DNA of 64,000 nt from Bacteroidales bacterium (GCA_040903745.1 JBBDUV010000047.1:72977-136976), one strand, 5' to 3'; numbered from the stretch's first letter, positions 9,208 through 39,120 are shown. Notes: generated by a model not told the origin, from the sequence alone. Translations and numbers: made by a program.

Positions 9208-9315
9208 TATGTGGGGACTTTATTATTCAAAGATCAAATTTAAAATTAAATTCAGGTATTTTATAGGAATTTAGATAAGTTTTCTTTGTGTGGGTATAAC
9301 ATTAATGAGATTAAT

Positions 9316-9323
9316 TATATTTG
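9316..9323 (+). promoter_or_regulatory. Candidate -7 promoter box (TATATTTG) for the sigma factor gene
   Basis: Exact TAnnTTTG match 44 nt upstream of the ATG at 9367. Confidence 0.35.
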
Positions 9324-9366
9324 TCATTCGGCTGAAATGGAACCAACTGATTTACTTTAAGATTTC

Positions 9367-9945
9367 ATGAAGAAATTCTCAGATGAAGATATCATACGTG
9401 GTCTCAGGAAACGGGACAACGATGTAATACAATTCATATACACGGAGAATTTCGGGATGGTCAGCTCTATGGTTCTGAAAAACAGTGGGTCCGATGATGA
9501 TTCTGAAGATGTGTTCCAGGAAGCCCTGATCATCGTTTTCAAGCGGTTGCGGGAGGAGCCCGATTTTGAGTTGACCAGCACATTTTCCACCTTTCTTTAT
9601 TCTGTTGCCAGGCTGATCTGGCTGAAGAAGATCAGGGAGGACAAGAAAATGGAAGTTACGGAGTTGAAGAGGGAGATGGAGGAGTTTATTGAGTTCGAAG
9701 AGCCGCCCCCGGTGCAGGATAAGGATTTGAGGATGGCTGTATACCAGCGCAATCTAATTCTTATTCCGGAAGATTGTCAGAAGATACTTGTTCTTACCGG
9801 GCAGAATATCTCAGCGAAGGAGATCGCTGAGAAGTTGGGTTTCAGGAGTGATACCTATGTTAGGAAGCGAAGGCATTTTTGCAAGGAATTTCTGGCGAAC
9901 CGCATTAAGGAGGACAAAGCGTACCAGGCGTTGCTGGATGACTAA
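9367..9945 (+). CDS. Sigma-70 family (ECF-like) RNA polymerase sigma factor
   Basis: A region 2-like segment reads DVFQEALIIVFKRL...FSTFLYSVARLIWL. A region 4 HTH reads ILVLTGQNISAKEIAEKLGFRSDTYVRKRRHFC. Confidence 0.8.
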   Translation: MKKFSDEDIIRGLRKRDNDVIQFIYTENFGMVSSMVLKNSGSDDDSEDVFQEALIIVFKRLREEPDFELTSTFSTFLYSVARLIWLKKIREDKKMEVTELKREMEEFIEFEEPPPVQDKDLRMAVYQRNLILIPEDCQKILVLTGQNISAKEIAEKLGFRSDTYVRKRRHFCKEFLANRIKEDKAYQALLDD

Positions 9946-10014
9946 GCTTGAACTTTCAACACACTTATCTTTCTCCCGGTCTATCTTTCCAATTACATGT
10001 TTGCTTGCTTGCAT

Positions 10015-10054
10015 ACCTATCTACCTATCTACCTATCTACCTATCTGCCTATCT
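10015..10054. repeat. Octanucleotide microsatellite (ACCTATCT x4 plus one degenerate copy)
   Basis: Tandem 8-mers read directly between the convergent sigma and CHAT genes. Confidence 0.9.
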
Positions 10055-10064
10055 GCCTAATTAT

Positions 10065-12866
10065 CTAACTAACAATCTGTTTATTGCTCTTAAAGATTTT
10101 TCTTATCTGCTTTTTATAAGTAAATAGCAGAATGAGTAGTGTTAATCCTGTTATAATAACTGCCAGATAGAAACCTGCAGATCTGCTGTGTAGCGGACTG
10201 TTGTTACCCACTATCATGAAAGCTGACCAGAAGTAGGGGTTGGCTTTCAGTTTGTCGGAGGAGGTTATATAGTCTATTTTGGCTTCCCGGAGCGCTCTCT
10301 TTTTGTTTCTACCTTTTTTGAGGTAGTTATAGAATCCACTCATCAGTTCGGCGCTGGACTGGTCCGATACCTGCCAGAGGGTCATGACAATACTGGGGCA
10401 ACCCGCGTAGATAAAACCACGGGCCATGCTCATCATTCCCTCACCCTTTTGCATTTTACCGTATCCACTGGAGCAGGAGCTCAGCACCACCATTTCTGCG
10501 TTCAGCTTCATGTTATAGATCTCATAGGTAAAGAGGTTATGGTCCTGGGTGGTATCGCTAAAATCTCTGGCAAAAGCCAGTTTCGAGAACATCGGGTTTT
10601 CGTCATCCATGATCGTATGCATGGCAAGGTGCAGAACTTTGTAATCGGAAGCGTATTGTTTAAAGTTGCTCTCCGTAGCTTCGTAGTCCATAAACACTTC
10701 AGAGGGCATGGTTTTGGAAATGTATTCGACCTCTCTTTTTGCACCTGGCAGCGGCATCAGGAAATCGGGATTTGACTGGCGGTTCCAGACCAGTGGAACA
10801 TCGTCATCCAGAAGGTTCTCATATTCTGGCGCAAAGGCCAGCACTTTTGCATGCGGTGATTTTGTCCTGATCCTTTCACTGAAAAGCAGGGTGGAGGAAT
10901 GGGAATAACCGACTGACAAGTCATGAATAAGGTAGGGCAGATCGCGGTAATTGATATACTCTTTATCGACATCGGCTGTGATAAACGAATCGAAGGGGAG
11001 GTACATGATGGCTCCGTCGGGCACAAAAGTAATCTCGCGACTGTCGGTTACATCAAGCACGGGCTTTACAAGGACCTCATAAAACATTTGTCCGAGCGTT
11101 ACATATTCCCTGTAGGTTTCCCGAACATTTTTACTGAAATCCTGGTTTTGAAGCAGTTTATAGTATGCAAAGCAGTTTTCATGGAATTCAGGTTCAATTT
11201 TCTGTGTAAGCACCTTGATCTGTTTCTTATCGATTATAAAAGTGGTCAATATAGAATCAGACAAAACATATTCTACAATACATTCATTTTTTTTGAGTTT
11301 TTCCTGTGCCTCCTTCAGTGTAATGAAATTCGGTTTATATTTTAATTCAAAATATCGGGGGTAGTTTCTTTCTATGGAATCAATAAGAGAATTGTAATTA
11401 TCTTTTAGCTTAAAAAAAGAATTATTATAATTTCTCAACACTTCTTCGTTTGGTTTAATCTTAGACTTTTCTTCATATATTAGTTCAGTATATGCTTCTA
11501 TTTTTCTTGTTAAGTTTATTTCATTATTTTTTACTTCAGGGGGTAGCCCAGAAAAATGCATTGCTTCACCACCTTTAATTTCAGAATATAAAGAAAAGGC
11601 TTTCATGTTTTCTGCATATTGAAATGCTTTTTCTAAGTATTCATGATTAGCAGTGATATTAAATAATTTTGAGGCTACATCAACTGCTTCATGAATAATA
11701 GTAATTCTTTTTTGAGATTCTAAGTGAATACTCTCAGGATTTCTCATATGTAGCCTGAAAACTTTTAAATATTCTATACTTCTAGAGTAGTTTTCTAATG
11801 AAAGTTTTAAATCATTAATATTATTAGTTTCATTGTATAACTTTCGAGCTGCATCTGCGTACAATTTGAAGAAATCAATAATATCTCTATTATAAGCGCG
11901 TTCATTCAAAATGTTATAAGCAGCATCAGAGTTATTATTTATATCTGATAATTTATTAATAGTCGTTGATAACCAAGCAATGCAATTATTATAATTCCCT
12001 TTTAAGTAATGTATATTACCAATTAATAAATATGTTTGATATAGCTTTTCAAATGAAGTCGATTCAGTATTATTCGTAATTTCTAAATTATTTAATAAAT
12101 ATTGCAGTGCAATATCATAATTCCCCAATTTAACATTTATAGAGGCTACCCTAAAGTTGTACAACATATGCAATGGGCTATTTGGATATAAACACTTATC
12201 GTATATATCTTTAGCAGTGTTAGTCTCAATTAATGCTAATTCAAGTTTAGACATTCTACTATATGCTTCTGCTAGAAATAAGTGCTTATAGTAATCTAAT
12301 CTTGGATTATTAGCTACAAATCCTAGCTCATTTAGAAATGAAATTGCTTCTTCAATTCTATCCTGAGTAATTAAAATATTAAAAAGATTAATATATGGTT
12401 TTACAAATACATCCGTATTTAATGGCATGTGAGTACTAAAGAAGTCAAGACAATAATTATAATACAATTCTGCTTCACTAAAATCTGAAAAACTGTAGTA
12501 AACATTACCCTTATTGTTATATATATAACCTAAAAACTCTGAGTTAGGATCATGCTCTGAAAAGTAATTCTCCGCAATATTTAAGTGCTTAAGTGCTTTT
12601 TGAAAATTATTTAGATTTCTGTAAATAACACTTAAATTCACATGTGTTGAAGCTGTTTTTGAATGGAATTTACCTAGAGATGCTTCCTGTAATTCCAGTG
12701 TCTTAAGAAGATAATATTCAGCACTATCGTAATTGCCTTGTTTTAAGTAATTAAATCCGGGTTTGTTATATGAGTCAATAAGTTTCTTTGTATCAATATA
12801 CTCTTGTCCAATTATAGTATTGATAAATCCTAATCCAAGAGATAATATGTAGATTATTGTTTTCAC
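10065..12866 (-). CDS. TPR-repeat CHAT-domain (caspase-like) protease with signal peptide and C-terminal TM anchor
   Basis: The CHAT dyad context is intact (VLHLAMHT and VVLSSCSSGYG). About 600 aa of TPR-like repeats lie upstream of it. A C-terminal TM reads FYLAVIITGLTLLILLF. The likely start is GTG at 12866 (MKTIIYILSLGLGF); the ORF stays open to 12947. Confidence 0.8.
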   Translation of the reverse strand: MKTIIYILSLGLGFINTIIGQEYIDTKKLIDSYNKPGFNYLKQGNYDSAEYYLLKTLELQEASLGKFHSKTASTHVNLSVIYRNLNNFQKALKHLNIAENYFSEHDPNSEFLGYIYNNKGNVYYSFSDFSEAELYYNYCLDFFSTHMPLNTDVFVKPYINLFNILITQDRIEEAISFLNELGFVANNPRLDYYKHLFLAEAYSRMSKLELALIETNTAKDIYDKCLYPNSPLHMLYNFRVASINVKLGNYDIALQYLLNNLEITNNTESTSFEKLYQTYLLIGNIHYLKGNYNNCIAWLSTTINKLSDINNNSDAAYNILNERAYNRDIIDFFKLYADAARKLYNETNNINDLKLSLENYSRSIEYLKVFRLHMRNPESIHLESQKRITIIHEAVDVASKLFNITANHEYLEKAFQYAENMKAFSLYSEIKGGEAMHFSGLPPEVKNNEINLTRKIEAYTELIYEEKSKIKPNEEVLRNYNNSFFKLKDNYNSLIDSIERNYPRYFELKYKPNFITLKEAQEKLKKNECIVEYVLSDSILTTFIIDKKQIKVLTQKIEPEFHENCFAYYKLLQNQDFSKNVRETYREYVTLGQMFYEVLVKPVLDVTDSREITFVPDGAIMYLPFDSFITADVDKEYINYRDLPYLIHDLSVGYSHSSTLLFSERIRTKSPHAKVLAFAPEYENLLDDDVPLVWNRQSNPDFLMPLPGAKREVEYISKTMPSEVFMDYEATESNFKQYASDYKVLHLAMHTIMDDENPMFSKLAFARDFSDTTQDHNLFTYEIYNMKLNAEMVVLSSCSSGYGKMQKGEGMMSMARGFIYAGCPSIVMTLWQVSDQSSAELMSGFYNYLKKGRNKKRALREAKIDYITSSDKLKANPYFWSAFMIVGNNSPLHSRSAGFYLAVIITGLTLLILLFTYKKQIRKIFKSNKQIVS

Positions 12867-13028
12867 GATGTTTAAAAAAAGTAAAATAATTTCATGATTA
12901 CAAATAGAATGGTATTTATTTATATTTCGTAAAGTACATAAAAGCAAATAGTTAAGACTTCGATCAATTATTTTTTTATTTTTCTGTTTTTATTTGGGTA
13001 ACGTTTGGGGTGTTTTTGGAATAAAGGG

Positions 13029-13064
13029 TTGAACGATCAACAAAACATGTATGAACCCTAATTA
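13029..13064. repeat. Left arm of an inverted-repeat pair (TTGAACGATCAA ... CCCTAATTA)
   Basis: The exact reverse complements of both blocks recur at 15459-15480. Confidence 0.7.
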
Positions 13065-13075
13065 ACAAAAACGTC

Positions 13076-13213
13076 ATGAAAACATTAAAAACAACAATCG
13101 ATTCTTTTGTAACGGATGCAATTACAAGAAATGAAATGAATTATCTTTTTGGAGGAGGTGAACCAATAGATATGATTATTCCTCCTGATGATGATGATGA
13201 AGAGCCGAAATAG
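13076..13213 (+). CDS. Small GG-leader peptide precursor (45 aa), absent from the ORF track
   Basis: ATG to TAG encodes MKTLKTTIDSFVTDAITRNEMNYLFGGGEPIDMIIPPDDDDEEPK. The leader pattern (L/I)xxxEMxxxxGG resembles Bacteroidota double-glycine bacteriocin/RiPP leaders. Confidence 0.5.
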   Translation: MKTLKTTIDSFVTDAITRNEMNYLFGGGEPIDMIIPPDDDDEEPK

Positions 13214-13754
13214 TTAAACTCAACAAAGAATTTTTGCACTCCTGACATTTTTTGTCAGAGTGGGACCTTCAACAGTTGCGAAAACGTTCGAACTGTCATG
13301 TGTAGAAAAATATATAGCCGGGGAGTATGCAACGACATGCGGTACCGGAAGATATAGGACAAGCACCCTTGTGTTTCTTTCATAGAGCTTCAATGTATCA
13401 TTGCATTGAGTCGCCAAATGGAAGATATATCAAGAAGGAAAGTTAGATTCTTCCATTGAGCCGAAGTAGTTCATGCTGCTTTAAGCGACACGGATGACTT
13501 TAACAGACCAACAGGAGGTAATTATATTCTTGAGCAGGGAAAAGCGGTTGGATAGCTTTTGGCTGACTGAATGCATAAAAACTGAATGTGCTATGTCCAC
13601 CCTTCAGTGAAACATAAAGTGGCACTGAGGCCGGAACAAACCAGACAGATGACCAGTGAACCATCGGGTTTCATCGGCCCGCAGTAATTAAAATCTACTG
13701 AAAAGCTGGAGCACTCCGGATTGTTATACATGAAATATTAATTTATATACTGAT

Positions 13755-14507
13755 ATGAAACGAGACAGACATTTTATCCAGAAATACCTCGATAATGACC
13801 TTTCAGACAAGGACATGAAGAGGTTTGAAGCAGATCTCGAAGTCAGTTCTCAACTTCAAAACGACCTGGCATTATACCGGGAAATTGATGAAGCGCTAAC
13901 CGATACGGAAGTATTGGGATTCAGAGAACAGCTTACAGATTTGCGACGAGAAAAACAAAAAGGTGGAGGGACCGGAAAGGGACCGATCCGCTTTACAAAA
14001 CCATGGCATTATGCTGCAACGGCAGCAATTGCACTGTTCCTGGCCATTGGCCTGGCATCTATACTTGACAGGCCCTTGGATAACAAGGACCTGCTTAAAA
14101 AGTACTACAAACCTTATGAGGTGGCATTGATCAACAGGTCAGACAATTCAACGGTCGACCTGATCCTGAAAAATGCAGAGATCCTCTATCAGAGGGGAGA
14201 GTTTAAGCAAGCTGCCATATATTTTGAAAAGGTGCTGGAAGAGCAACCTGATCTGGCAGGAACCAACCTCTATACAGGTATATCGTATTATGAACTTGAA
14301 CGATATTACGATGCCAAAAATTCATTGAACAGGGTGATCGAACACAACGATAACCTCTACATTGAACAGGCTGAGTGGTACCTGGGACTCTGCTTCCTCG
14401 CTCTCGAAGAGAATGATCGGGCAATAAGACAATTTGCCAGGATCGCTTCAGGCAACAGTGATAAGGCAACTGATGCCAGAAAGTTGCTGAGAAAGATCCG
14501 TAGATAG
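13755..14507 (+). CDS. Single-pass membrane TPR protein with an anti-sigma-like N-terminus
   Basis: The N-terminal helix reads FIQKYLDNDLSDKDMKRFEADL. The TM reads YAATAAIALFLAIGLASIL. The C-terminus carries TPR repeats. There is no zinc-finger Cys/His. Confidence 0.5.
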   Translation: MKRDRHFIQKYLDNDLSDKDMKRFEADLEVSSQLQNDLALYREIDEALTDTEVLGFREQLTDLRREKQKGGGTGKGPIRFTKPWHYAATAAIALFLAIGLASILDRPLDNKDLLKKYYKPYEVALINRSDNSTVDLILKNAEILYQRGEFKQAAIYFEKVLEEQPDLAGTNLYTGISYYELERYYDAKNSLNRVIEHNDNLYIEQAEWYLGLCFLALEENDRAIRQFARIASGNSDKATDARKLLRKIRR

Positions 14508-14552
14508 CAGAGACAACAGTTCAGCGGAACAATACACGCTTTTTATTGTGAA

Positions 14553-15410
14553 ATGATCAGAGAGAGATTTTATTCTGGAATGGAAATGGATCCGACATAT
14601 GAGGAGTTGCTATCTGACAACAGGAAACTGAAGCAGAAGCTGGAGTGGCTGGAAGGTGTTTATCATAGTCACAGAGATGCCGGAGAACAAGTGAAGGAGA
14701 AATTCCTGTCCAATATGTCTCACGAGATCAGGACACCAATGAATTCAATTCTGGGATTTGCAAATCTCCTGAACGATAACCAGCTAACAGAGAATGAGAG
14801 GGATGAATACTTATATTATATCACACACAGTAGCCGGACGCTCTTAAAAGTATTGGATAATATGATCGATCTGACCTTACTGGAGACCAAAGGTCTTAAA
14901 ATGAGGCGGGAGGAGATCTATGCAGAGGACCTGTTTAAAGAGATCTATGAGTTTTTTAATTCAAGGGTGGCTCGAACGATGCACTATCGGATAGCATTGT
15001 TAATGACAATCCCAACACAGTATGGAAGGATCACATTGGAGGCCGATGGATACAGGTTAAAACGAATTATTGAAAACTTGATTAGCAGCGCGTTCAATCA
15101 TCAGATCAAGGGTGTGATTGAAATGAGGATGGATGTAAAAGATGAGAATAGAATCGTCTTTACCGTGATAAGTAGTAAAAATGAGTTGCTCGAAGAACGG
15201 GCAAAAATGATCTTTGAAAATAATGGTAGTACGGATGACTGGCATAACCAGCTAGACTCCACGGGCCTTTCTTATAAATTGGCACGTGATTTGGCTCATG
15301 CCATGGGAGGCTCTGTCAGTCTGAAAAAGGTGAGTGAAAAGAGAATGGGAATATCAGTCGATCTGCCAATAAAGCGTATCGGCTATATTAAAAAAAAAAG
15401 AGTCGCCTGA
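14553..15410 (+). CDS. Soluble histidine kinase-like protein with a degenerate ATP-binding domain
   Basis: The H-box SNMSHEIRTPMNSILGF is intact. There is no TM segment. G1 (DxGxG) is absent and G2 is degenerate (DSTGLSYKL). Confidence 0.7.
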   Translation: MIRERFYSGMEMDPTYEELLSDNRKLKQKLEWLEGVYHSHRDAGEQVKEKFLSNMSHEIRTPMNSILGFANLLNDNQLTENERDEYLYYITHSSRTLLKVLDNMIDLTLLETKGLKMRREEIYAEDLFKEIYEFFNSRVARTMHYRIALLMTIPTQYGRITLEADGYRLKRIIENLISSAFNHQIKGVIEMRMDVKDENRIVFTVISSKNELLEERAKMIFENNGSTDDWHNQLDSTGLSYKLARDLAHAMGGSVSLKKVSEKRMGISVDLPIKRIGYIKKKRVA

Positions 15411-15458
15411 AAACGTTACAGCACTGTTGAATTGAACGGGAATTGATGTAGCTCCCAA

Positions 15459-15480
15459 TAATTAGGGATTGATCGTTCAA
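15459..15480. repeat. Right arm of the inverted-repeat pair (TAATTAGGG a TTGATCGTTCAA)
   Basis: Reverse complement of the blocks at 13029-13064. Confidence 0.7.
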
Positions 15481-17819: not shown

Positions 17820-19061
17820 ATGAAAGTTAGATTTTACATTGAGAAGCGGCGAGGAAAGGATGGAAGATTATTGACCAGCAGAAGGCCGATATTCATGACG
17901 GTCGCTTTTCATGGTAAAAGGGTATTGATCTCCACCGGAAAAAATGTTGATCTGAAATGGTGGGATCATACGAAGCAGCAGGTGAGAGAGATGCATCCGG
18001 ATGCATCCGTTATCAATAGATGGCTCGAAACATTAGCGTATACCGCCGGCACTGTCTGGAAGTCGCTGGCAAGCCTGTCTGAGAATCCCGGGGTAGGGGA
18101 GTTTCGCGATGAATTTGAGCGGTTGAGACCCCGGTTTTCAGGAGGGTTCTTTGACATCATGTTTCTGTTCATGGAAGAGGGTTCCAGGCGTTGGAGTATA
18201 AGTACATACCAAAAAGTTCGAACCTTCTATAACCAGCTGAAAGAGTTCGAAAAGTCAGAGATGTATCCTCTTCATTTTAACACCATGAATGAATCGTTTC
18301 TTTATCGGTTTCGCGATTATCTTGAGAAAAAAAGCAGGTCGGAATCCACCATCAGAAAGATGGTAAACCTGCTCGTTTGGTACCTGAACTGGGCTACAAA
18401 AAATGGGTACAATGTGTATTACGATTACCGGGGTTTTTATAAAATGCTTGATAAAGGAAGTGCAACGGAAAAAATCCCGGCAAAGTGCGAACCTGTTTAC
18501 CTGGAATGGGATGAGCTGTTGCGGTTCCTGAAGCATTCGCCATGCACAACTGTGAAAGAACGTGTCAGGGACCTCTTTTGTTTGAGTTGTTTCACCGGAC
18601 TAAGATTCGGAGAGTTGCGGAACCTGACTAAGGAGGATGTAATGGCATCCTCTGTTATTGTGAGAAAAGGTGACAGTAAGGTGAGATATGTTCCGGTAAG
18701 CAAATATGCTGCGGTGATCCTCGAAAAATATAAGCACCGTTACTACCGTGACAATGCGGCGCTGCCACCCGTGAGCGCGATGACGGTGAACAAGTACCTG
18801 AGGGTCATGGCGAAGGAATTGAAACTTGAGCGGACGGTTGCCGTGGGTATCGGAAGCAGACGAAGGGCGATGCTTTGGGAGGTGCTAACGGCCGGAGCCG
18901 GGGTCCAGACTTTTATCATGCATGCGCTCAGACTGGAAATCCCTGCGGATGTCATAGCCTCGTTTACCGGTGTAACGAGCGATCATCGCATCAAACTCAT
19001 GAAACAGGAATTGGCAATGAAAGAGATAAAGAAATTCGATTTGATAGAACATTCTCAGTAA
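17820..19061 (+). CDS. Tyrosine-recombinase-family (phage integrase-like) protein, apparently lacking the nucleophile Tyr
   Basis: The layout is a Bacteroidota-type integrase. Box I reads TGLRFGELRNL and HxxR is present (MHALR). No Tyr occurs in the 42 residues after HALR. Confidence 0.7.
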   Translation: MKVRFYIEKRRGKDGRLLTSRRPIFMTVAFHGKRVLISTGKNVDLKWWDHTKQQVREMHPDASVINRWLETLAYTAGTVWKSLASLSENPGVGEFRDEFERLRPRFSGGFFDIMFLFMEEGSRRWSISTYQKVRTFYNQLKEFEKSEMYPLHFNTMNESFLYRFRDYLEKKSRSESTIRKMVNLLVWYLNWATKNGYNVYYDYRGFYKMLDKGSATEKIPAKCEPVYLEWDELLRFLKHSPCTTVKERVRDLFCLSCFTGLRFGELRNLTKEDVMASSVIVRKGDSKVRYVPVSKYAAVILEKYKHRYYRDNAALPPVSAMTVNKYLRVMAKELKLERTVAVGIGSRRRAMLWEVLTAGAGVQTFIMHALRLEIPADVIASFTGVTSDHRIKLMKQELAMKEIKKFDLIEHSQ

Positions 19062-23665: not shown

Positions 23666-25708
23666 ATGTACCGAAAATTTAATATACGGTTTTTGCTGGC
23701 TGTTTTTGCCGGATCGCTTTGTCTGACCGCTGCGGGTCAGCCCATTGCCGAAAAAGGTGTTCTTGATCTGCGAAATTATAATTTTTCGGAAGAGGGAATA
23801 CTTGAAATTCAAGGTGAGTGGATTTTTTACTGGAACAGATTGATTGATCCGATTTCACATGACGATTCGACTGCTGTGTGCGTGCCTGTTCCGGCTGCAT
23901 GGGGTCAGCTCACGGATATCATCCCCGGAATAGAGCCGATAGGATTCGGGACCTATGCCCTGAAGATCCTGCTTCCCGAAAAGATTGAGACCATTGTGCT
24001 TCGTTTTAAGGAGGTTTTTTCGGCATCGGGATATTATGTGAATGGGAGGAGTGTCGGATTCAAAGGATTACCTGGAAGTAACAGGTACCAGTCAGTGTTT
24101 GGCTACACCCCATCAATGTTTGTCGTTCCTGTAAATGATACATTGCTCGACCTGCTGGTGCATGTCTCAAATTTTGAACATCGCTCGGGTGGCATGCGCG
24201 GGATTATTGAGGTGGGCACCCCGATGCAGATAATATCAGACCGTTCTGAACAGAAGCATCGGGACTATTTTCTGTTGGGGGCATTTTTCATTATGGGAAT
24301 CTATTTTATGGCTATGTTTCAGGCGCGCTCTGATATGTATAAACTCTTTTTCTCCCTGATATGCCTGGTGATGGTTTTCAGGATTTATATATTGAGCGAT
24401 ACGGATCTTCAGCCATTTCACTGGATCACCGAAATCAGCCGGCTAAGACTTGAATACTTAAGTTTTGCCCTGCTTGTACCACTGTTTGTGCTGATGGTAC
24501 GGTTTGTGTTCCCACATGATTTTTCGAAATTGTTGTTCAGGATCATCCTGGGGATTTGTGGACTGATGATTCTCATAGTGATATTATCACCAGTGCGTAT
24601 TTTTACGGCAGCATTTTCTTACTATATGTATTTTGTAATGTTTGCCGGGGCAGTGATCCTGTTTACGATTTTGATGGCATGGAAGCGGGGTCGTTATTAT
24701 GCACAAGGTTTTGCAGCCGGGATCATCATTGTTTTGGTGGGTGCGGTGAATGATATGCTCTTCGTTACTGATGTGCTTGAAACCGGATTGGTTTCACATT
24801 ATTCCATGATTGTGTTTCTGCTGATCTATGCAATTATTTTTTCTCGCAAGATAAACCGGGGTCTTCTACGCAACGAGCGATTGTCGGATGAGATATTGCA
24901 GATGAATGAGAACCTGGAGCTACTTGTCGACAAGCGGACAAATGAGCTGAGCAAAAAATCGGAACAGTTGGCTATACATAGAGAGGAATTGAGAAAGAGC
25001 AATGAGGAGTTGCAGCGGGAAGTATATATCCGTAACCGTTTTATAGCGATAATGGGTCACGATATACGCGGACCGCTTGGTTATACGAACCAGGTATTGG
25101 ATTTAATCCTTAAAGGTGCCCTGAGCAAGGAGGATGAGCGGGAGATGCTTAAGCTTACAGCAGAAAATTCCCGAACGCTGTTAAATCTCCTTGAGAATTT
25201 ATTGTACTGGGGCCGGTGTCAGACCGGTGAGTTGAAGAGCATGGCTATCCTCTTTCGCCCGGCGACAATTATGCAGGAGGCAACAGAGCTTTATCAGTTA
25301 CCCCTGTCAGATAAGGGGATTGAATTGTTTTCGGATGTGCCGGACGATCTGAAAGTATATGCAGACCAGGAGCATGTTAAACTGATCATCAGAAATCTGC
25401 TCGCCAACGCGATCAAGTATACAGGTGAGGGTGGTGAGATCAGACTGAGTGCAGCAGCTGACCACAAAGCGGGAGAAGTAGTGATTGAAGTGGCGGATAA
25501 CGGGATTGGCATGGAGGAGGATGATCAGAAAAATGTTTTTAACAGTCAGTATGTAACCTCTACGCCAGGTACCAGCAATGAGAAAGGGTCGGGCTTTGGA
25601 TTAAAACTCTGCAGGGAGCTGGTTGAGTTAAATAACGGAACCATTACCGTTGAGAGCCAGGTCGGCAAGGGCAGCCGCTTTTTAGTGCGACTTCCTCTGA
25701 CCGCATAA
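23666..25708 (+). CDS. 7TMR-DISM-type sensor histidine kinase
   Basis: A signal peptide precedes an extracellular beta-domain. Seven TM helices follow (aa ~200-400), then a coiled coil, the H-box MGHDIRGPLG, the N box LLANAIKYT, G1 DNGIGM and G2 GSGFGL. Confidence 0.8.
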   Translation: MYRKFNIRFLLAVFAGSLCLTAAGQPIAEKGVLDLRNYNFSEEGILEIQGEWIFYWNRLIDPISHDDSTAVCVPVPAAWGQLTDIIPGIEPIGFGTYALKILLPEKIETIVLRFKEVFSASGYYVNGRSVGFKGLPGSNRYQSVFGYTPSMFVVPVNDTLLDLLVHVSNFEHRSGGMRGIIEVGTPMQIISDRSEQKHRDYFLLGAFFIMGIYFMAMFQARSDMYKLFFSLICLVMVFRIYILSDTDLQPFHWITEISRLRLEYLSFALLVPLFVLMVRFVFPHDFSKLLFRIILGICGLMILIVILSPVRIFTAAFSYYMYFVMFAGAVILFTILMAWKRGRYYAQGFAAGIIIVLVGAVNDMLFVTDVLETGLVSHYSMIVFLLIYAIIFSRKINRGLLRNERLSDEILQMNENLELLVDKRTNELSKKSEQLAIHREELRKSNEELQREVYIRNRFIAIMGHDIRGPLGYTNQVLDLILKGALSKEDEREMLKLTAENSRTLLNLLENLLYWGRCQTGELKSMAILFRPATIMQEATELYQLPLSDKGIELFSDVPDDLKVYADQEHVKLIIRNLLANAIKYTGEGGEIRLSAAADHKAGEVVIEVADNGIGMEEDDQKNVFNSQYVTSTPGTSNEKGSGFGLKLCRELVELNNGTITVESQVGKGSRFLVRLPLTA

Positions 25709-35910: not shown

Positions 35911-38900
35911 ATGTTTATGAAAAAATCAGGCATAATATCCCGGTTGTCAGAACTTATTAATAGAATATCAAGTTCATTTATAGATCTGACAATAAACAAA
36001 AAACTGATTTATGGATTTGGTTTTGTTATTGTGTTAGGATTAATAACCTCAACTGTTCACTGGTTCATGCTCGATTTGCAATCAAAGAGTTATTCGTTAT
36101 CCAAAAATGCCGGAAAAATAACAGCTGACTTAAGGTTGCTAAGACAAGATGAAAAAAACTTCATGTTACGCGATGATCCAAAATATGCAAAACTGGTTAA
36201 ATCTGCATTGAATCAATTGCATAAAGTAGCCGAACAGCTTGATAATAAGGCATATAACGTGGGGGGGGGGGTATCTATTACAACCATTTTAGAAGACCTG
36301 AAAGCTTATGAAAAGAATTTTGACGATTACCTGACACTAAACAATAGAAAGCGGGCTGCCCTTGAGGAAATGATTAAACAAGGGCGGGATGTAGAGGAAT
36401 TATCTGACCAAATACGAGCCGACCAAAAGAAAGAATTACAGCAACTCGAAAAAGTTGCCATGTCGGCTGTTGATCAGATGCGCGACAAACGTGTGAAAGC
36501 CGATGATGCCAACCGCATGATAAAGTTGATGGACGAGGCCAGGCAGGAGGAGAAAAACTTTCTTTTACGCAAGAATGAAAATGATGCCAATTTGACCTTG
36601 ATGCTGGTCAATGATCTTATTGCACAGGCAAAAATAACCCACAATCGTTTTGATGATCCCCAGAACCAGGCCATGGCTAAAGCAATCATTTCTGCATCTG
36701 AAAAATATATAGCAGAATTCAAAGATGTCATTGAGTTGGAGGGTAACCAGCGGGAAGGCAGCATACTGATGAACCAAAAGATACAATTGGCCTTAGATGA
36801 AATGGTTAGACAAGGGCGGGATGTAGAGGAGTTATCCGATCAGATACGGGCGGATCAGAAAAAGGAATTGCTGCTACTTGAAGAAAGCTCAAGACCGGAT
36901 ATTACTGAGATGCGCGACAAACGTGTGAAAGCCGATGATGCCAACCGCATGATAAAGCTGATGGACGAGGCCAGGTCGCAGGAAAAAAACTTTCTTTTAC
37001 GCAATGATGAAGATGATGCCGATTTGACCTTGAAACTGGTCAGTGATCTTATTGAACAGGCTAAAACAACCCGCAATCGTTTTGGAGATCGTCAGAACCA
37101 AGCCATGGCTGATGCGATAATCACTGCAGCACAGCAATATAAAGACCAGTTTGTAAATGTCATTAAACTGGTAAAAGAACAGCAGCGGATCAGCATACAA
37201 ATGGACTCTAGAAAACAAGCTGCCCTTGAGGAAATGATTAAACAAGGGCGGGATGTAGAGGAATTATCTGACCAAATACGAGCCGACCAAAAGAAAGAAT
37301 TACAGCAACTCGAAAAAGTTGCCATGTCGGCTGTTGATCAGATGCGCGACAAACGTGTGAAAGCCGATGATGCCAACCGCATGATAAAGTTGATGGACGA
37401 GGCCAGGCAGGAGGAGAAAAACTTTCTTTTACGCAAGAATGAAAATGATGCCAATTTGACCTTGATGCTGGTCAATGATCTTATTGCACAGGCAAAAATA
37501 ACCCACAATCGTTTTGATGATCCCCAGAACCAGGCCATGGCTAAAGCAATCATTTCTGCATCTGAAAAATATATAGCAGAATTCAAAGATGTCATTGAGT
37601 TGGAGGGTAACCAGCGGGAAGGCAGCATACTGATGAACCAAAAGATACAATTGGCCTTAGATGAAATGGTTAGACAAGGGCGGGATGTAGAGGAGTTATC
37701 CGATCAGATACGGGCGGATCAGAAAAAGGAATTGCTGCTACTTGAAGAAAGCTCAAGACCGGATATTACTGAGATGCGCGACAAACGTGTGAAAGCCGAT
37801 GATGCCAACCGCATGATAAAGCTGATGGACGAGGCCAGGTCGCAGGAAAAAAACTTTCTTTTAAGACAAAATACCGAAGATGCTGAATTGACACTCGAGT
37901 TAGTCGACAGTCTTATTGCTCAAGCTTATATCACCAAAAAACGTTTTAACGACCTCCAGAACCAAACCATGGCTCAAACAATCGTTGCTGCATCTGAAAA
38001 ATATACAGAGGAATTCAGGAATGTGATTGAAATTGTTAACAAACAACATTCTGCTGCAGAATTAATGATTGCAAAAGCCCGCGAAGTAGAGAAAACAGCC
38101 CAAAAAGTAGAGAAAATACAGGACATGGCGATGAACACAAGTGTTATTACTGCTCGTTTGGTAAGTGCATTTGCCGAAATTTTTAAAATAATAATTTTAA
38201 TATTACTGGCTTGGGTTTTAATGCGTGTTATATCTGATCCTGTTCTTAAGTTAAGCAATATCATGAGCAACCTTTCTAAGGACGATACTAATGTAAACAT
38301 ACCTGAACAGGAGCGGGGCGATGAAATAGGTGTGATGGGCAAAGCAATTCAGATTTTAAAAGAACGGGTAATCGAACGCAACCGCTTCCAGAAAGAGATA
38401 ATTATGGCCAGGGATGAGGCTGAACGCACAAATCTGGAGCTTAAGACAGTCAATGAGGAACTGGAAGCTTTCGCGTACTCGGTCTCTCACGACCTTCGGG
38501 CCCCGCTGAGGGCAATCAACGGTTTCACGAGAATCATATTGAAAAAATATGAAGATACCATGGATGAAGAGGGAAAACGCCAGGCCAATGTAATCATGGA
38601 AAACGCCTTAAAAATGAGCCAGCTAATAGATGACCTCCTAGGCTTTTCACGCCTGGGTCGTAAATCCATGAATTTTTCTCGAATTGATATGAAAAAAATG
38701 GCAAATGACATTATTTCAGAATTGAAAAAAGAAAATAAAGGAAGAAACATATCTTTTACCGTGGCGGATTTGCCAACTATAAACGCTGATTCTCAGTTGT
38801 TGCATCAGGTATGGTTAAACCTTGTTTCAAATGCATTCAAATTTACTTCTCACCTCAAAAAAGCAGAGATATCAATTGGTTATCAGGAAAATAAAAAGAA

Positions 38901-39120
38901 ACCTACCTTTTTTATCAAGGATAATGGTGCAGGTTTTGATATGCAATATGCCGACAAATTATTCGGTGTGTTTCAACGGCTTCACAGCGATAAAGAGTTT
39001 CAAGGTACAGGTGTGGGTTTGGCTTTGGTGCAGCGCATTGTTCACCGTCATGGAGGCAAAGTCTGGGCAGAAGGAGAAGTAGGCAAGGGTGCAACTTTTT
39101 ATTTTTCGATGCCAAAATAA
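35911..39120 (+). CDS. Sensor histidine kinase with a ~690-aa periplasmic region made of five helical repeats (TM - 5 modules - TM - HAMP - HisKA - HATPase)
   Basis: TM1 is LIYGFGFVIVLGLITSTVHWFML. Five E-K-N-F-(L/M)-L-R motifs occur at a 144-aa period. TM2 lies near aa 748-774. A HAMP-like linker follows. The H-box is SVSHDLRAPLRAINGF, and the other motifs are NAFKFT, DNGAGFD and GTGVGLAL. Confidence 0.85.
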   Translation: MFMKKSGIISRLSELINRISSSFIDLTINKKLIYGFGFVIVLGLITSTVHWFMLDLQSKSYSLSKNAGKITADLRLLRQDEKNFMLRDDPKYAKLVKSALNQLHKVAEQLDNKAYNVGGGVSITTILEDLKAYEKNFDDYLTLNNRKRAALEEMIKQGRDVEELSDQIRADQKKELQQLEKVAMSAVDQMRDKRVKADDANRMIKLMDEARQEEKNFLLRKNENDANLTLMLVNDLIAQAKITHNRFDDPQNQAMAKAIISASEKYIAEFKDVIELEGNQREGSILMNQKIQLALDEMVRQGRDVEELSDQIRADQKKELLLLEESSRPDITEMRDKRVKADDANRMIKLMDEARSQEKNFLLRNDEDDADLTLKLVSDLIEQAKTTRNRFGDRQNQAMADAIITAAQQYKDQFVNVIKLVKEQQRISIQMDSRKQAALEEMIKQGRDVEELSDQIRADQKKELQQLEKVAMSAVDQMRDKRVKADDANRMIKLMDEARQEEKNFLLRKNENDANLTLMLVNDLIAQAKITHNRFDDPQNQAMAKAIISASEKYIAEFKDVIELEGNQREGSILMNQKIQLALDEMVRQGRDVEELSDQIRADQKKELLLLEESSRPDITEMRDKRVKADDANRMIKLMDEARSQEKNFLLRQNTEDAELTLELVDSLIAQAYITKKRFNDLQNQTMAQTIVAASEKYTEEFRNVIEIVNKQHSAAELMIAKAREVEKTAQKVEKIQDMAMNTSVITARLVSAFAEIFKIIILILLAWVLMRVISDPVLKLSNIMSNLSKDDTNVNIPEQERGDEIGVMGKAIQILKERVIERNRFQKEIIMARDEAERTNLELKTVNEELEAFAYSVSHDLRAPLRAINGFTRIILKKYEDTMDEEGKRQANVIMENALKMSQLIDDLLGFSRLGRKSMNFSRIDMKKMANDIISELKKENKGRNISFTVADLPTINADSQLLHQVWLNLVSNAFKFTSHLKKAEISIGYQENKKKPTFFIKDNGAGFDMQYADKLFGVFQRLHSDKEFQGTGVGLALVQRIVHRHGGKVWAEGEVGKGATFYFSMPK
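36261..36271 (+). repeat. G11 homopolymer inside the sensor kinase CDS (codons ~118-122, VGGGV)
   Basis: Read directly as aacgt-G11-tatc. The tract is in frame as given. Confidence 0.95.
36355..36999 (+). repeat. 645-bp direct repeat, copy 1 (within the kinase CDS)
   Basis: Base-for-base identical by eye to 37219-37863. The offset is 864 bp, or 288 codons. Confidence 0.9.
37219..37863 (+). repeat. 645-bp direct repeat, copy 2 (within the kinase CDS)
   Basis: Identical to 36355-36999. Antisense ORFs in the supplied track also repeat exactly at +864. Confidence 0.9.

What the first reader, a model, noticed from the sequence alone, without database searches (positions are those of the whole stretch)
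9316..15480. Sigma factor / TPR-CHAT protease / GG-leader peptide / anti-sigma-like TPR protein / degenerate kinase module
Five neighbouring genes form a coherent but uncharacterised set:
- An ECF-like sigma factor.
- A convergent envelope-anchored TPR-CHAT caspase-like protease of about 934 aa, with an intact His/Cys dyad.
- A 45-aa double-glycine leader peptide gene that is missing from the ORF track.
- A single-pass TPR protein whose cytoplasmic N-terminus looks like an anti-sigma helix but lacks zinc ligands.
- A soluble histidine kinase-like protein that has lost its ATP-lid motifs.

TPR-CHAT proteases are known as effector proteases of type III-E CRISPR systems and occur in other conflict systems, but no cas genes are present here. 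By predicted topology, the protease and the TPR domain of the anti-sigma-like protein share the periplasm. That suggests protease-gated sigma signalling and/or peptide processing.
Basis: partly seen in the sequence, partly recalled or inferred. Interest (0 to 1): 0.7.

Follow-up and report, generated by a model that had tools for sequence, protein, structure and literature searches.

The report
Peptide-linked CHAT protease, anti-sigma-like cassette
A small group of uncultured Bacteroidales keeps a fixed gene set (an exported caspase-like protease, a tiny secreted-type peptide, an anti-sigma-like membrane protein, a dead-kinase protein and usually a nearby sigma factor) that looks like a new split form of protease-controlled gene switching, but its function is untested.

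Summary
All five genes exist as described. They are an ECF-type sigma (9367-9945), an exported, membrane-anchored TPR-CHAT protease with an invariant His/Cys dyad (10065-12866), a real 45-aa double-glycine-leader peptide (13076-13213), a single-pass anti-sigma-like TPR protein without zinc ligands (13755-14507), and a soluble HisKA protein with a degenerate ATP site (14553-15410).

In about 90 related loci the core CHAT <-> peptide -> anti-sigma-like -> pseudokinase is never broken. The sigma gene abuts CHAT in 12 of about 27 informative loci. In the others it is separated by 1.4 to more than 10 kb of variable genes.

All of this lies in one Bacteroidales lineage, where flanking housekeeping genes are equally syntenic, so neighbourhood evidence is weak.

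New here:
- An invariant ECF-like motif (GGGTAACGTTT-N11-GGAAT) lies only upstream of the peptide.
- A structured leader sits between the peptide and the anti-sigma-like gene, with strong covariation in one subclade.

The closest known systems are Myxococcus DdvA/DdvS (a fused anti-sigma-TPR-CHAT) and Craspase Csx29/Csx30/CASP-sigma.

Best reading (confidence 0.4): a split, periplasmic, peptide-linked version of CHAT-gated sigma control. It is a new variant of a known kind, with moderate interest.

The parts
9316..9323 (+). TATATTTG, a Bacteroidetes housekeeping-type -7 promoter box (TAnnTTTG) 44 nt upstream of the sigma start
   Evidence: Pattern scan. The block TTATATTTGT is conserved upstream of sigma in 12 related loci. 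No ECF-like motif is present there.
9367..9945 (+). ECF-type sigma-70 family factor, 192 aa, with no adjacent co-transcribed anti-sigma gene
   Evidence: TIGR02937 scores 51.2 bits (cut-off 42.9) and Sigma70_r2 hits at E 1.2e-5. PDB SigE hits at E 4e-5. Orthologues are 60-97% identical.
10065..12866 (-). TPR-CHAT caspase-like cysteine protease, 933 aa from GTG 12866 (longest ORF reaches 12947). Layout: signal peptide, KLC-like TPRs, CHAT domain with H750/C798, C-terminal membrane anchor.
   Evidence: CHAT E 2e-56 and TPR_12 E 1.5e-20. The TPR region resembles kinesin light chain at E 9e-17 with a profile. The dyad is invariant. Hydrophobic segments lie at 1-19 and 895-919 with a +4 tail. Start codon.
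12996..13025 (+). Conserved cis element GGGTAACGTTT (12996-13006), an 11-nt variable spacer, then GGAATAAA (13018-13025). It is a candidate ECF-type -35/-10 promoter of the peptide gene.
   Evidence: Near-invariant in 68 distinct upstream sequences. It occurs once per locus and only upstream of the peptide. In the metagenome scan, 49 of the first 80 hits are cassette loci and the rest are at chance level.
13054..13063 (+). Conserved AACCC(C)TAATT block in the peptide 5' leader, 13-22 nt before the ATG
   Evidence: Alignment of 68 upstream sequences.
13076..13213 (+). 45-aa double-glycine-leader peptide. Leader: MKTLKTTIDSFVTDAITRNEMNYLFGG. Core: GEPIDMIIPPDDDDEEPK, net charge -7.
   Evidence: Homologues in all loci. 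Coding signature. 254 clusters. Relatives match the leader part of TIGR04149, one above the cut-off. Core charge.
13214..13754 (+). 541-nt structured spacer between the peptide and the anti-sigma-like gene. It probably belongs to the same transcript or is the 5' leader of the downstream operon.
   Evidence: Minimum free energy -153 kcal/mol, z -3.96, with 0 of 100 shuffles folding as well. No Rfam match. The equivalent region in one subclade is an RNA with strong covariation. The model does not find the window copy significantly (E 0.38).
13318..13348 (+). Hairpin CCGG-GGAGTATGCAACGACATGCGGTA-CCGG, the one piece of the spacer shared with relatives
   Evidence: The same CCGG..GCATRC..GYATGC..CCGG hairpin is seen in L002, L003, L064 and L085. 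It corresponds to helices 2 and 3 of model R1.
13755..14507 (+). Single-pass membrane protein, 250 aa. Layout: cytoplasmic anti-sigma-like helical N-domain without zinc ligands, transmembrane segment 85-108, invariant juxtamembrane KPYxxxxxNRS motif, periplasmic TPR domain.
   Evidence: TPR hits. Anti-sigma NCBIfam families recur in 13/13 and 12/13 N-domains, best E 4e-5. zf-HC2 hits at E 0.003-0.03. AlphaFold gives helices 2-12, 18-30, 32-50 and 54-69. Invariant columns. Topology.
14553..15410 (+). Soluble HisKA + degenerate HATPase_c protein, 285 aa. The phospho-acceptor His is kept. G1 is absent in the whole family and the N-box Asn is lost in the window.
   Evidence: The best solved matches include the non-canonical kinase RetS. 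Always 20-70 nt downstream of the anti-sigma-like gene.

Best explanation
This is a lineage-specific envelope signalling cassette, a split and peptide-linked version of CHAT-protease-gated sigma control.

**Shown**
- The core is four genes that are never separated: an exported, inner-membrane-anchored TPR-CHAT protease with an intact catalytic dyad; a divergently transcribed 38-62-aa peptide with a double-glycine export-type leader and a short, fast-evolving, mostly acidic and proline-containing core; and, downstream on the peptide strand, a single-pass protein with an anti-sigma-like cytoplasmic domain and a periplasmic TPR domain, followed by a soluble DHp-His protein that cannot bind ATP normally.
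- The peptide gene alone carries an invariant ECF-like promoter motif.

**Inferred**
- The anti-sigma-like protein holds an ECF sigma, most likely the orphan sigma at 9367-9945, which is the ancestral convergent neighbour of the protease gene.
- The peptide is exported by a peptidase-containing ABC transporter encoded elsewhere. Its mature form meets the TPR domains in the periplasm.
- Peptide binding changes the activity of the CHAT protease towards the conserved juxtamembrane region of the anti-sigma-like protein (a site-1 cut). Intramembrane proteolysis follows and the sigma is released.
- The sigma then drives the peptide promoter, and by read-through of the structured leader also the anti-sigma-like and pseudokinase genes. 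This gives positive and negative feedback.
- The pseudokinase acts as a phosphotransfer or partner-binding accessory on the cytoplasmic side.
For: - The core order is constant in every locus, down to 38% identity of the anti-sigma-like protein.
- Sigma and CHAT are convergent neighbours in the two most distant subclades, so that arrangement is ancestral.
- The His/Cys dyad is invariant.
- Predicted topology places TPR-CHAT and the TPR of the anti-sigma-like protein outside the cytoplasm.
- N-domain matches to anti-sigma families are weak but recur in all members, and the predicted fold is a helical bundle.
- The motif KPYxxxxxNRS just outside the membrane is invariant.
- The peptide is a real gene with a double-glycine leader related to TIGR04149.
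- The ECF-like motif is near-invariant and found only upstream of the peptide.
- G-U pairs and covariation show that the spacer is transcribed on the peptide/anti-sigma strand in relatives.
- Precedents exist. DdvA is an anti-sigma fused to a periplasmic TPR-CHAT and is proposed to cut itself as a site-1 protease (PMC11506125). Csx29 cleaves the sigma inhibitor Csx30 (PMC10028731).
Against: - Sigma is separated from the core by 1.4 to more than 10 kb in about 15 of 27 loci, and it stays with another gene block.
- The sigma promoter is housekeeping-type.
- No anti-sigma match reaches a curated threshold.
- No export transporter, site-2 protease or response regulator lies in the neighbourhood.
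- No second copy of the promoter motif was found.
- The CHAT domain has no sequence-level match to DdvA or Csx29.
- The whole region, including unrelated housekeeping genes, is syntenic in this lineage, so conserved order is weak evidence.
Confidence: 0.4

Rival explanations
1. The four-gene core is a functional unit, but the nearby sigma is not its partner. Output would go through another sigma, or through the DHp-His protein acting on a two-component pathway, either as a RetS-like inhibitor of another kinase or as a ChpT/Spo0B-like phosphotransferase.
For: - Sigma linkage decays, and sigma stays with the MscS/M64 block.
- The sigma family has more clusters (349) than the anti-sigma-like family (134).
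- The sigma promoter is housekeeping-type.
- The HK-like protein is always co-oriented 20-70 nt after the anti-sigma-like gene. It keeps the H-box, and its solved matches include RetS.
- Three other histidine kinases lie in the window.
Against: - No other sigma or response regulator is conserved near the core.
- The sigma/CHAT convergent pair is kept in both deepest subclades.
- The peptide promoter looks ECF-like rather than like a two-component operator.
Confidence: 0.2
2. The locus is a peptide natural-product or bacteriocin-type locus. The peptide is the product, and the CHAT protease and TPR proteins serve in maturation, immunity or regulation.
For: - The leader matches the TIGR04149 RiPP-precursor leader in relatives, and JGI names some members 'natural product precursor'.
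- The core region is hypervariable between subclades.
Against: - No radical-SAM or other modifying enzyme, and no C39 transporter, lies next to it in any locus.
- The cores are short, acidic, and lack Cys, Ser and Thr patterns.
- The cassette is inherited vertically at one chromosomal site.
- Clan CD proteases are not known to cut at Gly-Gly (general knowledge).
Confidence: 0.12
3. There is no module. The genes are neighbours only because this chromosomal segment is stable in the lineage.
For: - DUF3127, FKBP, the MnmC-like methyltransferase and a recombinase are equally syntenic.
- The family is confined to one lineage.
Against: - Insertions occur repeatedly on the CHAT side towards sigma but never inside the four-gene core.
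- The peptide and CHAT genes share one short divergent control region.
- Gaps between the anti-sigma-like and HK-like genes are short.
- The domain logic is coherent (two exported TPR proteins, a protease and an export-type peptide).
Confidence: 0.1
4. The small ORF is a cis-acting regulatory leader peptide. Ribosome pausing at the conserved Pro-Pro near its end would set the fold of the structured spacer and so control the downstream anti-sigma-like and HK-like genes.
For: - PP lies close to the stop codon in most members.
- The spacer is structured and transcribed on the same strand.
- No housekeeping -7 box lies in front of the anti-sigma-like gene.
Against: - The best-conserved part is the N-terminal double-glycine leader, not the C-terminus.
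- The distance from PP to the stop codon varies (1 to 18 residues), and PP is missing in some members.
- The spacer RNA is not conserved across subclades.
Confidence: 0.08
5. The locus is an anti-phage or conflict system in which the CHAT protease is a suicide or effector protease.
For: CHAT proteases act in type III-E and III-B CRISPR-associated defence and in DdvA-controlled defence islands.
Against: - No PADLOC family matches any of the six proteins.
- No cas, CBASS or other defence genes are nearby.
- The locus sits at a fixed chromosomal position, is inherited vertically and is not in a variable island.
- The protease is exported rather than cytoplasmic.
Confidence: 0.04

Closest known systems
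[quoted passage not shown]
   Same: - An anti-sigma-type cytoplasmic domain, one membrane pass, and periplasmic TPR plus a CHAT protease with a His/Cys dyad.
- An ECF sigma gene nearby.
- The proposed logic is that CHAT acts as the site-1 protease that starts regulated intramembrane proteolysis.
   Different: - Here the parts sit on two proteins: an anti-sigma-like protein with a short TPR, and a separate TPR-CHAT with its own membrane anchor.
- There is no zinc-binding CHCC motif.
- There is no detectable sequence similarity to DdvA.
- A double-glycine peptide and a pseudokinase are added.
- No defence island is nearby.
- The phylum is Bacteroidota, whereas the authors found DdvA-like proteins only in Myxococcota and one Comamonas.
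Type III-E Craspase: Csx29 (TPR-CHAT), Csx30, Csx31 and CASP-sigma (PMC10028731)
   Same: A TPR-CHAT protease encoded beside an ECF-like sigma and a sigma inhibitor. Cleavage of the inhibitor relieves the sigma.
   Different: - Craspase is cytoplasmic and is activated by RNA through Cas7-11.
- No cas genes are present here.
- The protease here is exported.
- The inhibitor candidate here is a membrane protein unrelated to Csx30.
Classical regulated intramembrane proteolysis of anti-sigma factors (RseA/DegS/RseP, RsiW/PrsW/RasP)
   Same: A single-pass anti-sigma with a periplasmic domain. A periplasmic site-1 protease that senses a peptide-like cue (DegS is activated by C-terminal peptides of porins).
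   Different: - The site-1 candidate here is a clan CD cysteine protease, not a serine protease or metalloprotease.
- The sigma and anti-sigma genes are not co-transcribed.
- No site-2 protease is known for this organism.
Double-glycine-leader peptide pheromones and RiPP precursors (ComC/BlpC type; Bacteroidetes TIGR04149 family)
   Same: The leader has the conserved hydrophobic positions and GG cleavage motif. The cores are short and variable. The peptide gene has its own dedicated promoter.
   Different: - No adjacent C39 ABC transporter, membrane histidine kinase or radical-SAM maturase.
- The window peptide itself does not reach the TIGR04149 model.
- Peptide signalling of this kind has not, to my knowledge, been described in Bacteroidota (no description was found).
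Non-phosphorylating HK-like proteins (RetS, ChpT, Spo0B)
   Same: A DHp helix with the conserved His plus a CA-like domain that lacks the ATP-binding motifs. The protein is soluble or acts by binding partners.
   Different: - No receiver domain or partner kinase has been identified.
- The constant pairing with an anti-sigma-like gene is not a feature of those proteins.

Membership tests
ECF (group 4) sigma-70 factors | [quoted passage not shown] | tested here: met
   TIGR02937 scores 51.2 bits (cut-off 42.9) over residues 24-179, and Sigma70_r2 is above its cut-off. SigE structures are the best PDB matches.
ECF (group 4) sigma-70 factors | The usual (not universal) co-transcription with a cognate anti-sigma, and auto-regulation from an ECF-type promoter (PMC7826278) | tested here: not met
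   No anti-sigma gene is adjacent. The next gene is the convergent CHAT gene. The upstream region carries a housekeeping TAnnTTTG box and no ECF-like motif.
CHAT (caspase-like, clan CD) peptidases | CHAT domain with a catalytic His and Cys | tested here: met
   PF12770 hits at E 2e-56 over residues 619-915 of the long ORF. H750 (LAMHT) and C798 (LSSCSSG) are invariant in 14 orthologues.
DdvA-type anti-sigma (fused ZASD, TM, TPR-CHAT) | One polypeptide that carries the anti-sigma domain, the transmembrane helix and a periplasmic TPR-CHAT | tested here: not met
   Two separate genes on opposite strands, and separate in all related loci.
DdvA-type anti-sigma (fused ZASD, TM, TPR-CHAT) | Zinc-binding CHCC anti-sigma domain | tested here: not met
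   Residues 1-84 of the N-domain contain no Cys and a single His.
DdvA-type anti-sigma (fused ZASD, TM, TPR-CHAT) | Extracytoplasmic location of the TPR-CHAT | tested here: met
   This is a prediction only. It rests on an N-terminal signal-peptide-like segment ending in ..IIG-QE and a C-terminal helix with a +4 cytoplasmic tail.
Type III-E Craspase (Csx29) | Association with Cas7-11/gRAMP, Csx30 and Csx31 | tested here: not met
   No cas-related or PADLOC family in the six proteins. The neighbours are MscS, DUF3127, FKBP, a methyltransferase and a recombinase.
Class I anti-sigma factors (anti-sigma domain) | N-terminal helical anti-sigma domain that binds sigma-2 and sigma-4 | tested here: inconclusive
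   - Sub-threshold matches recur: NF052375 in 13/13 and NF010501 in 12/13 N-domains, best E 4e-5.
- zf-HC2 hits at E 0.003-0.03 over residues 8-26.
- Four predicted helices at pLDDT 55-78.
- No PDB anti-sigma match.
Class I anti-sigma factors (anti-sigma domain) | Single transmembrane helix with the N-terminus inside | tested here: met
   One hydrophobic segment at 85-108, with +3 charge before it.
Double-glycine leader peptides (substrates of C39 peptidase ABC transporters; TIGR04149) | Leader ending in GG, with conserved hydrophobic residues at -4, -7 and -12 and an acidic residue at -8 | tested here: met
   The window has ...I(-12)TRNE(-8)M(-7)NYL(-4)FGG. The pattern is kept in 18 aligned members.
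Double-glycine leader peptides (substrates of C39 peptidase ABC transporters; TIGR04149) | Match to the TIGR04149 model above its cut-off | tested here: not met
   The window peptide gives no hit at E up to 10. Seven relatives hit the leader part at 12.7-26.1 bits, and only one exceeds the 25-bit cut-off.
Double-glycine leader peptides (substrates of C39 peptidase ABC transporters; TIGR04149) | Neighbouring C39-domain transporter or radical-SAM maturase | tested here: not met
   None among the large ORFs of the window or in any related locus. The rest of the genome could not be searched.
Sensor histidine kinases (HisKA + HATPase_c) | Phospho-acceptor His in the H-box | tested here: met
   SHEIRTPMN is conserved in all 13 orthologues.
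Sensor histidine kinases (HisKA + HATPase_c) | ATP-binding N, G1 and G2 boxes | tested here: not met
   - Aligned to solved kinases, NLVGNA becomes NLISSA and QDTGIG becomes ISSKNE.
- G1 is missing in all orthologues.
- The N-box Asn is kept in some relatives but lost in the window and in L001.

The most novel reading that the evidence does not exclude
The cassette is a peptide-pheromone (quorum-sensing-like) circuit of Bacteroidales. An exported double-glycine peptide would be read in the periplasm by TPR domains. The signal would be transduced by a caspase-like CHAT protease that cuts a split anti-sigma factor. The freed ECF sigma would then auto-induce the peptide gene from the invariant GGGTAAC...GGAAT promoter. 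A structured leader RNA and a pseudokinase would tune the feedback.
Probability: 0.15. Interest if true: 0.85.

Novelty: new variant of a known kind. Interest (0 to 1): 0.55.

Why it matters
If the model holds, control of a sigma factor by a CHAT protease would extend beyond CRISPR-linked and Myxococcus defence regulation. It would then include a chromosomal, vertically inherited envelope signalling device in Bacteroidota.

It would also give a natural 'split' form of DdvA. In that form, the proposed site-1 role of the CHAT domain could be tested with two separable proteins.

The cassette would further tie a double-glycine peptide to sigma-factor signalling. That would be a candidate for peptide-based cell-to-cell communication in a phylum where I know of no such system.

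Two further results are useful for annotation in any case. The covarying leader RNA in relatives is absent from Rfam.

Tried and rejected
1. **Known RNA family in the spacer.** Rfam gave nothing in the window or in six related loci.
2. **The covarying RNA of relatives is present in the window.** Model R1 finds 59 copies elsewhere. In the window it gives only 5.2 bits, E 0.38. Only one hairpin is shared.
3. **Invertible promoter flipped by the conserved recombinase.** The 20-nt inverted repeat 12854-12873 / 13069-13088 arises because both divergent genes start with MKT(I/L). It is absent in ten related loci.
4. **More regulon members through the promoter motif.** There is one copy per locus. 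In the metagenome scan, the 31 non-cassette hits among the first 80 match the number expected by chance, have mixed GC content and show no recurrent gene.
5. **Sequence homology of the CHAT part to DdvA, Csx29 or separase.** Single-sequence and profile searches of PDB return only TPR proteins.
6. **Known defence system.** No PADLOC match.
8. **Export transporter in the window.** The large ORFs are glycosidase, kinases, peptidase S9, a TonB-dependent receptor and others.
9. **Prior description of this cassette.** The literature searches found none.

Full report
**What is in the window**

Six-frame ORFs and profile searches confirm all five genes.
- The sigma (9367-9945, +) passes the ECF superfamily model TIGR02937 (51.2 bits, cut-off 42.9) and Pfam Sigma70_r2. 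Its nearest solved relatives are ECF SigE chains.
- The convergent gene on the minus strand has a CHAT domain (E 2e-56) after kinesin-light-chain-like TPRs.
  - Orthologue alignments and the DNA show that translation starts at GTG 12866, giving 933 aa, not at the upstream TTG of the longest ORF.
  - The protein begins with a signal-peptide-like segment. It ends with a hydrophobic helix followed by a +4 tail.
  - H750 and C798 are invariant.
- The 250-aa protein at 13755-14507 has one N-in membrane pass (85-108), C-terminal TPRs and a Cys-free N-domain.
- The 285-aa protein at 14553-15410 has no hydrophobic segment and an intact H-box. Aligned to solved kinases, the N-box Asn and the G1 DxGxG motif are replaced. 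G1 is missing in every orthologue.

**The 45-aa ORF is a gene**

- A homologous ORF lies between the CHAT gene and the anti-sigma-like gene in every related locus that covers the spot.
- Differences among ten leaders concentrate at third codon positions (321, against 84 at position 2), and 210 codon differences are synonymous.
- A profile search finds 254 protein clusters of 38-62 aa. Most sources leave them unnamed or call them 'hypothetical protein', and JGI calls a few 'natural product precursor'.
- The leader has the double-glycine pattern (hydrophobic at -4, -7 and -12, Glu at -8).
- Relatives match the leader part of TIGR04149, one of them above the cut-off. The window peptide itself does not.
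- After GG the core is short and changes between subclades: (D/E)P(I/V)xD(L/M)(I/L)xPP in most, and unrelated acidic or proline-rich sequences in the most distant ones.
- The window core has a net charge of -7.

**Comparative genomics**

A scan of species-representative genomes with the CHAT protein gave 20 Bacteroidales or Bacteroidota MAG loci. Look-ups from distant anti-sigma-like, sigma and peptide homologues added 13 more. A promoter-motif scan of metagenomes added about 49 more.

The order CHAT <-> peptide -> anti-sigma-like -> HK-like is unbroken everywhere, down to 38% identity of the anti-sigma-like protein.

The sigma gene behaves differently.
- It abuts the 3' end of the CHAT gene in the window subclade and in the most distant subclade (12 loci), so the five-gene layout is ancestral.
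- In the middle subclade, 1.4-3.2 kb of cargo is inserted in 6 loci. The cargo includes Fur, peroxiredoxin, nitrilase, sulfatases and a FecI/FecR/TonB-receptor trio.
- In about 9 loci the sigma is not seen within 5-8 kb.
- Seen from the sigma side, it always follows the MscS and M64-peptidase genes, and two loci show no CHAT gene within 10 kb.

One caveat applies to all of this. The right-hand neighbours (DUF3127, FKBP, an MnmC-like methyltransferase and a tyrosine recombinase) are just as syntenic. The family is also confined to this one lineage, with 134 clusters of the anti-sigma-like protein. Conserved order alone therefore proves little. The informative point is that insertions recur next to the core but never inside it.

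1. A motif GGGTAACGTTT, an 11-nt variable spacer and GGAAT(A/T)AA lie about 50 nt upstream of the peptide start (window 12996-13025). The motif is almost invariant in 68 distinct sequences and occurs once per locus.
   - Its shape resembles ECF promoters: a G(G/T)AAC-type -35 followed by T's, then a second block 16 nt later. This resemblance is my own assessment, not a test.
   - The sigma gene instead has the Bacteroidetes housekeeping -7 box TAnnTTTG (9316-9323).
2. The spacer between the peptide and the anti-sigma-like gene is structured.
   - In the window it is 541 nt and folds 4 sd better than shuffles.
   - In one subclade the 280-nt spacer is a multi-hairpin RNA. A covariance model of its 3' half finds 59 copies.
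   - Of 34 modelled pairs, 19 show changes on both sides, and 93.9% of cells pair, against 21-54% when partners are slid.
   - G-U pairs fix the strand as that of the peptide and the anti-sigma-like gene.
   - Rfam has no match.
   - The model does not detect the window copy. Only one hairpin (13318-13348) is shared.

**Is the TPR protein an anti-sigma?**

- No curated threshold is reached.
- Across 13 N-domains the only recurrent hits are anti-sigma families (13/13 and 12/13, best E 4e-5).
- Pfam zf-HC2 aligns to residues 8-26 at E 0.003-0.03.
- AlphaFold predicts four N-terminal helices at modest confidence.
- A profile search of PDB finds no anti-sigma.
- I treat the assignment as likely but unproven.
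- The most conserved extracytoplasmic feature is KPYxxxxxNRS just outside the membrane. This is a natural candidate for a recognition or cleavage site, by inference only.

**Comparison with what is known**

- DdvA of Myxococcus is an anti-sigma whose periplasmic domain is a TPR-CHAT. Its authors propose that CHAT is the site-1 protease that triggers RseP-dependent release of the ECF sigma DdvS. They found such proteins only in Myxococcota and one Comamonas.
- In type III-E systems, Csx29 cleaves Csx30, which inhibits an ECF-like sigma.
- A type III-B CHAT/caspase cascade also targets a sigma factor.

The present cassette differs in several ways.
- It is split into two membrane proteins.
- It lacks zinc ligands.
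- It is chromosomal and vertically inherited, with no defence genes.
- It carries two extra constant parts, the double-glycine peptide and the pseudokinase.
- It fails the membership tests for DdvA-type and Craspase systems, but it could work like them.

**Most likely mechanism**

Shown: the gene content, the predicted topology, the intact dyad, the export-type leader, the dedicated conserved promoter motif and the transcribed structured spacer.

Inferred:
- The peptide is exported by a transporter encoded elsewhere.
- It meets the TPR domains in the periplasm.
- The CHAT protease then cuts the anti-sigma-like protein.
- An ECF sigma, probably the neighbour, is released and drives the peptide promoter, with read-through into the anti-sigma-like and pseudokinase genes.

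I put this at 0.4. The rivals, with their weights, are:
- A sigma-independent core that signals through the DHp-His protein (0.2).
- A natural-product locus (0.12).
- Pure synteny (0.1).
- A cis-acting leader peptide (0.08).
- A defence system (0.04).

**Verdict**

This is a new variant of a known kind. It is interesting mainly because it may link a secreted peptide to CHAT-gated sigma control in Bacteroidota. It is limited by the narrow, uncultured lineage and by the lack of any direct test.

Noticed in passing
L007:6898-7182 (-) and the equivalent spacer in 58 other related loci (e.g. L094:1092-1205, L043:1771-1883): A structured RNA of about 250 nt lies between the peptide and the anti-sigma-like gene in one subclade, and it is not in Rfam. 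For the modelled 114-nt half, 19 of 34 pairs change on both sides and 93.9% of cells pair. G-U pairs show it is transcribed on the gene strand.
   Followed up: yes
window 13214-13754: The window's own 541-nt spacer folds unusually stably (z -3.96), but it differs in sequence and length from its relatives (204-740 nt). Only the hairpin at 13318-13348 is shared.
   Followed up: partly
window 17820-19061: A tyrosine recombinase (Arm-DNA-bind_5, Phage_int_SAM_5 and Phage_integrase domains) sits at the same chromosomal position in nearly all related loci, at 42-87% identity. It looks like a fixed, possibly domesticated recombinase rather than part of a mobile element.
   Followed up: partly
window 12854-12873 and 13069-13088: A 20-nt inverted repeat (85% complementary) brackets the divergent control region. 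It arises because the CHAT and peptide genes both begin AAAC(A/G)TC(G/A)TGAAAACA (MKT...). It is not conserved in ten related loci, so it is not an invertible switch.
   Followed up: yes
window 10014-10059: A tandem repeat TACCTATC x 5.8 lies in the 119-nt gap between the converging stop codons of the sigma and CHAT genes.
   Followed up: no
window 13186-13200: A perfect trinucleotide run (TGA x 5, read as GAT codons) encodes the poly-Asp tail of the peptide. Close relatives have acidic tails of different lengths, which suggests slippage-prone variation.
   Followed up: no
window 9208-9366, compared with L023:4526-5797 and L027:8635-9948: Most relatives have an M64-family peptidase gene directly upstream of the sigma, on the same strand. 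The window and its closest relatives lack it, so MscS abuts the sigma.
   Followed up: no
L009:7066-10847, L014:10913-15092, L019:10847-15026: An unrelated FecI-type sigma, FecR-type anti-sigma and TonB-dependent receptor trio is inserted downstream of the CHAT gene in some relatives. This shows that the site is an insertion hot spot.
   Followed up: no
window 23666-25708, 35911-39120, 39624-41555: Three canonical histidine kinases lie in the window: a 7TMR-DISM type, a HAMP type, and a PAS hybrid with receiver domains. They could be partners of the pseudokinase.
   Followed up: no
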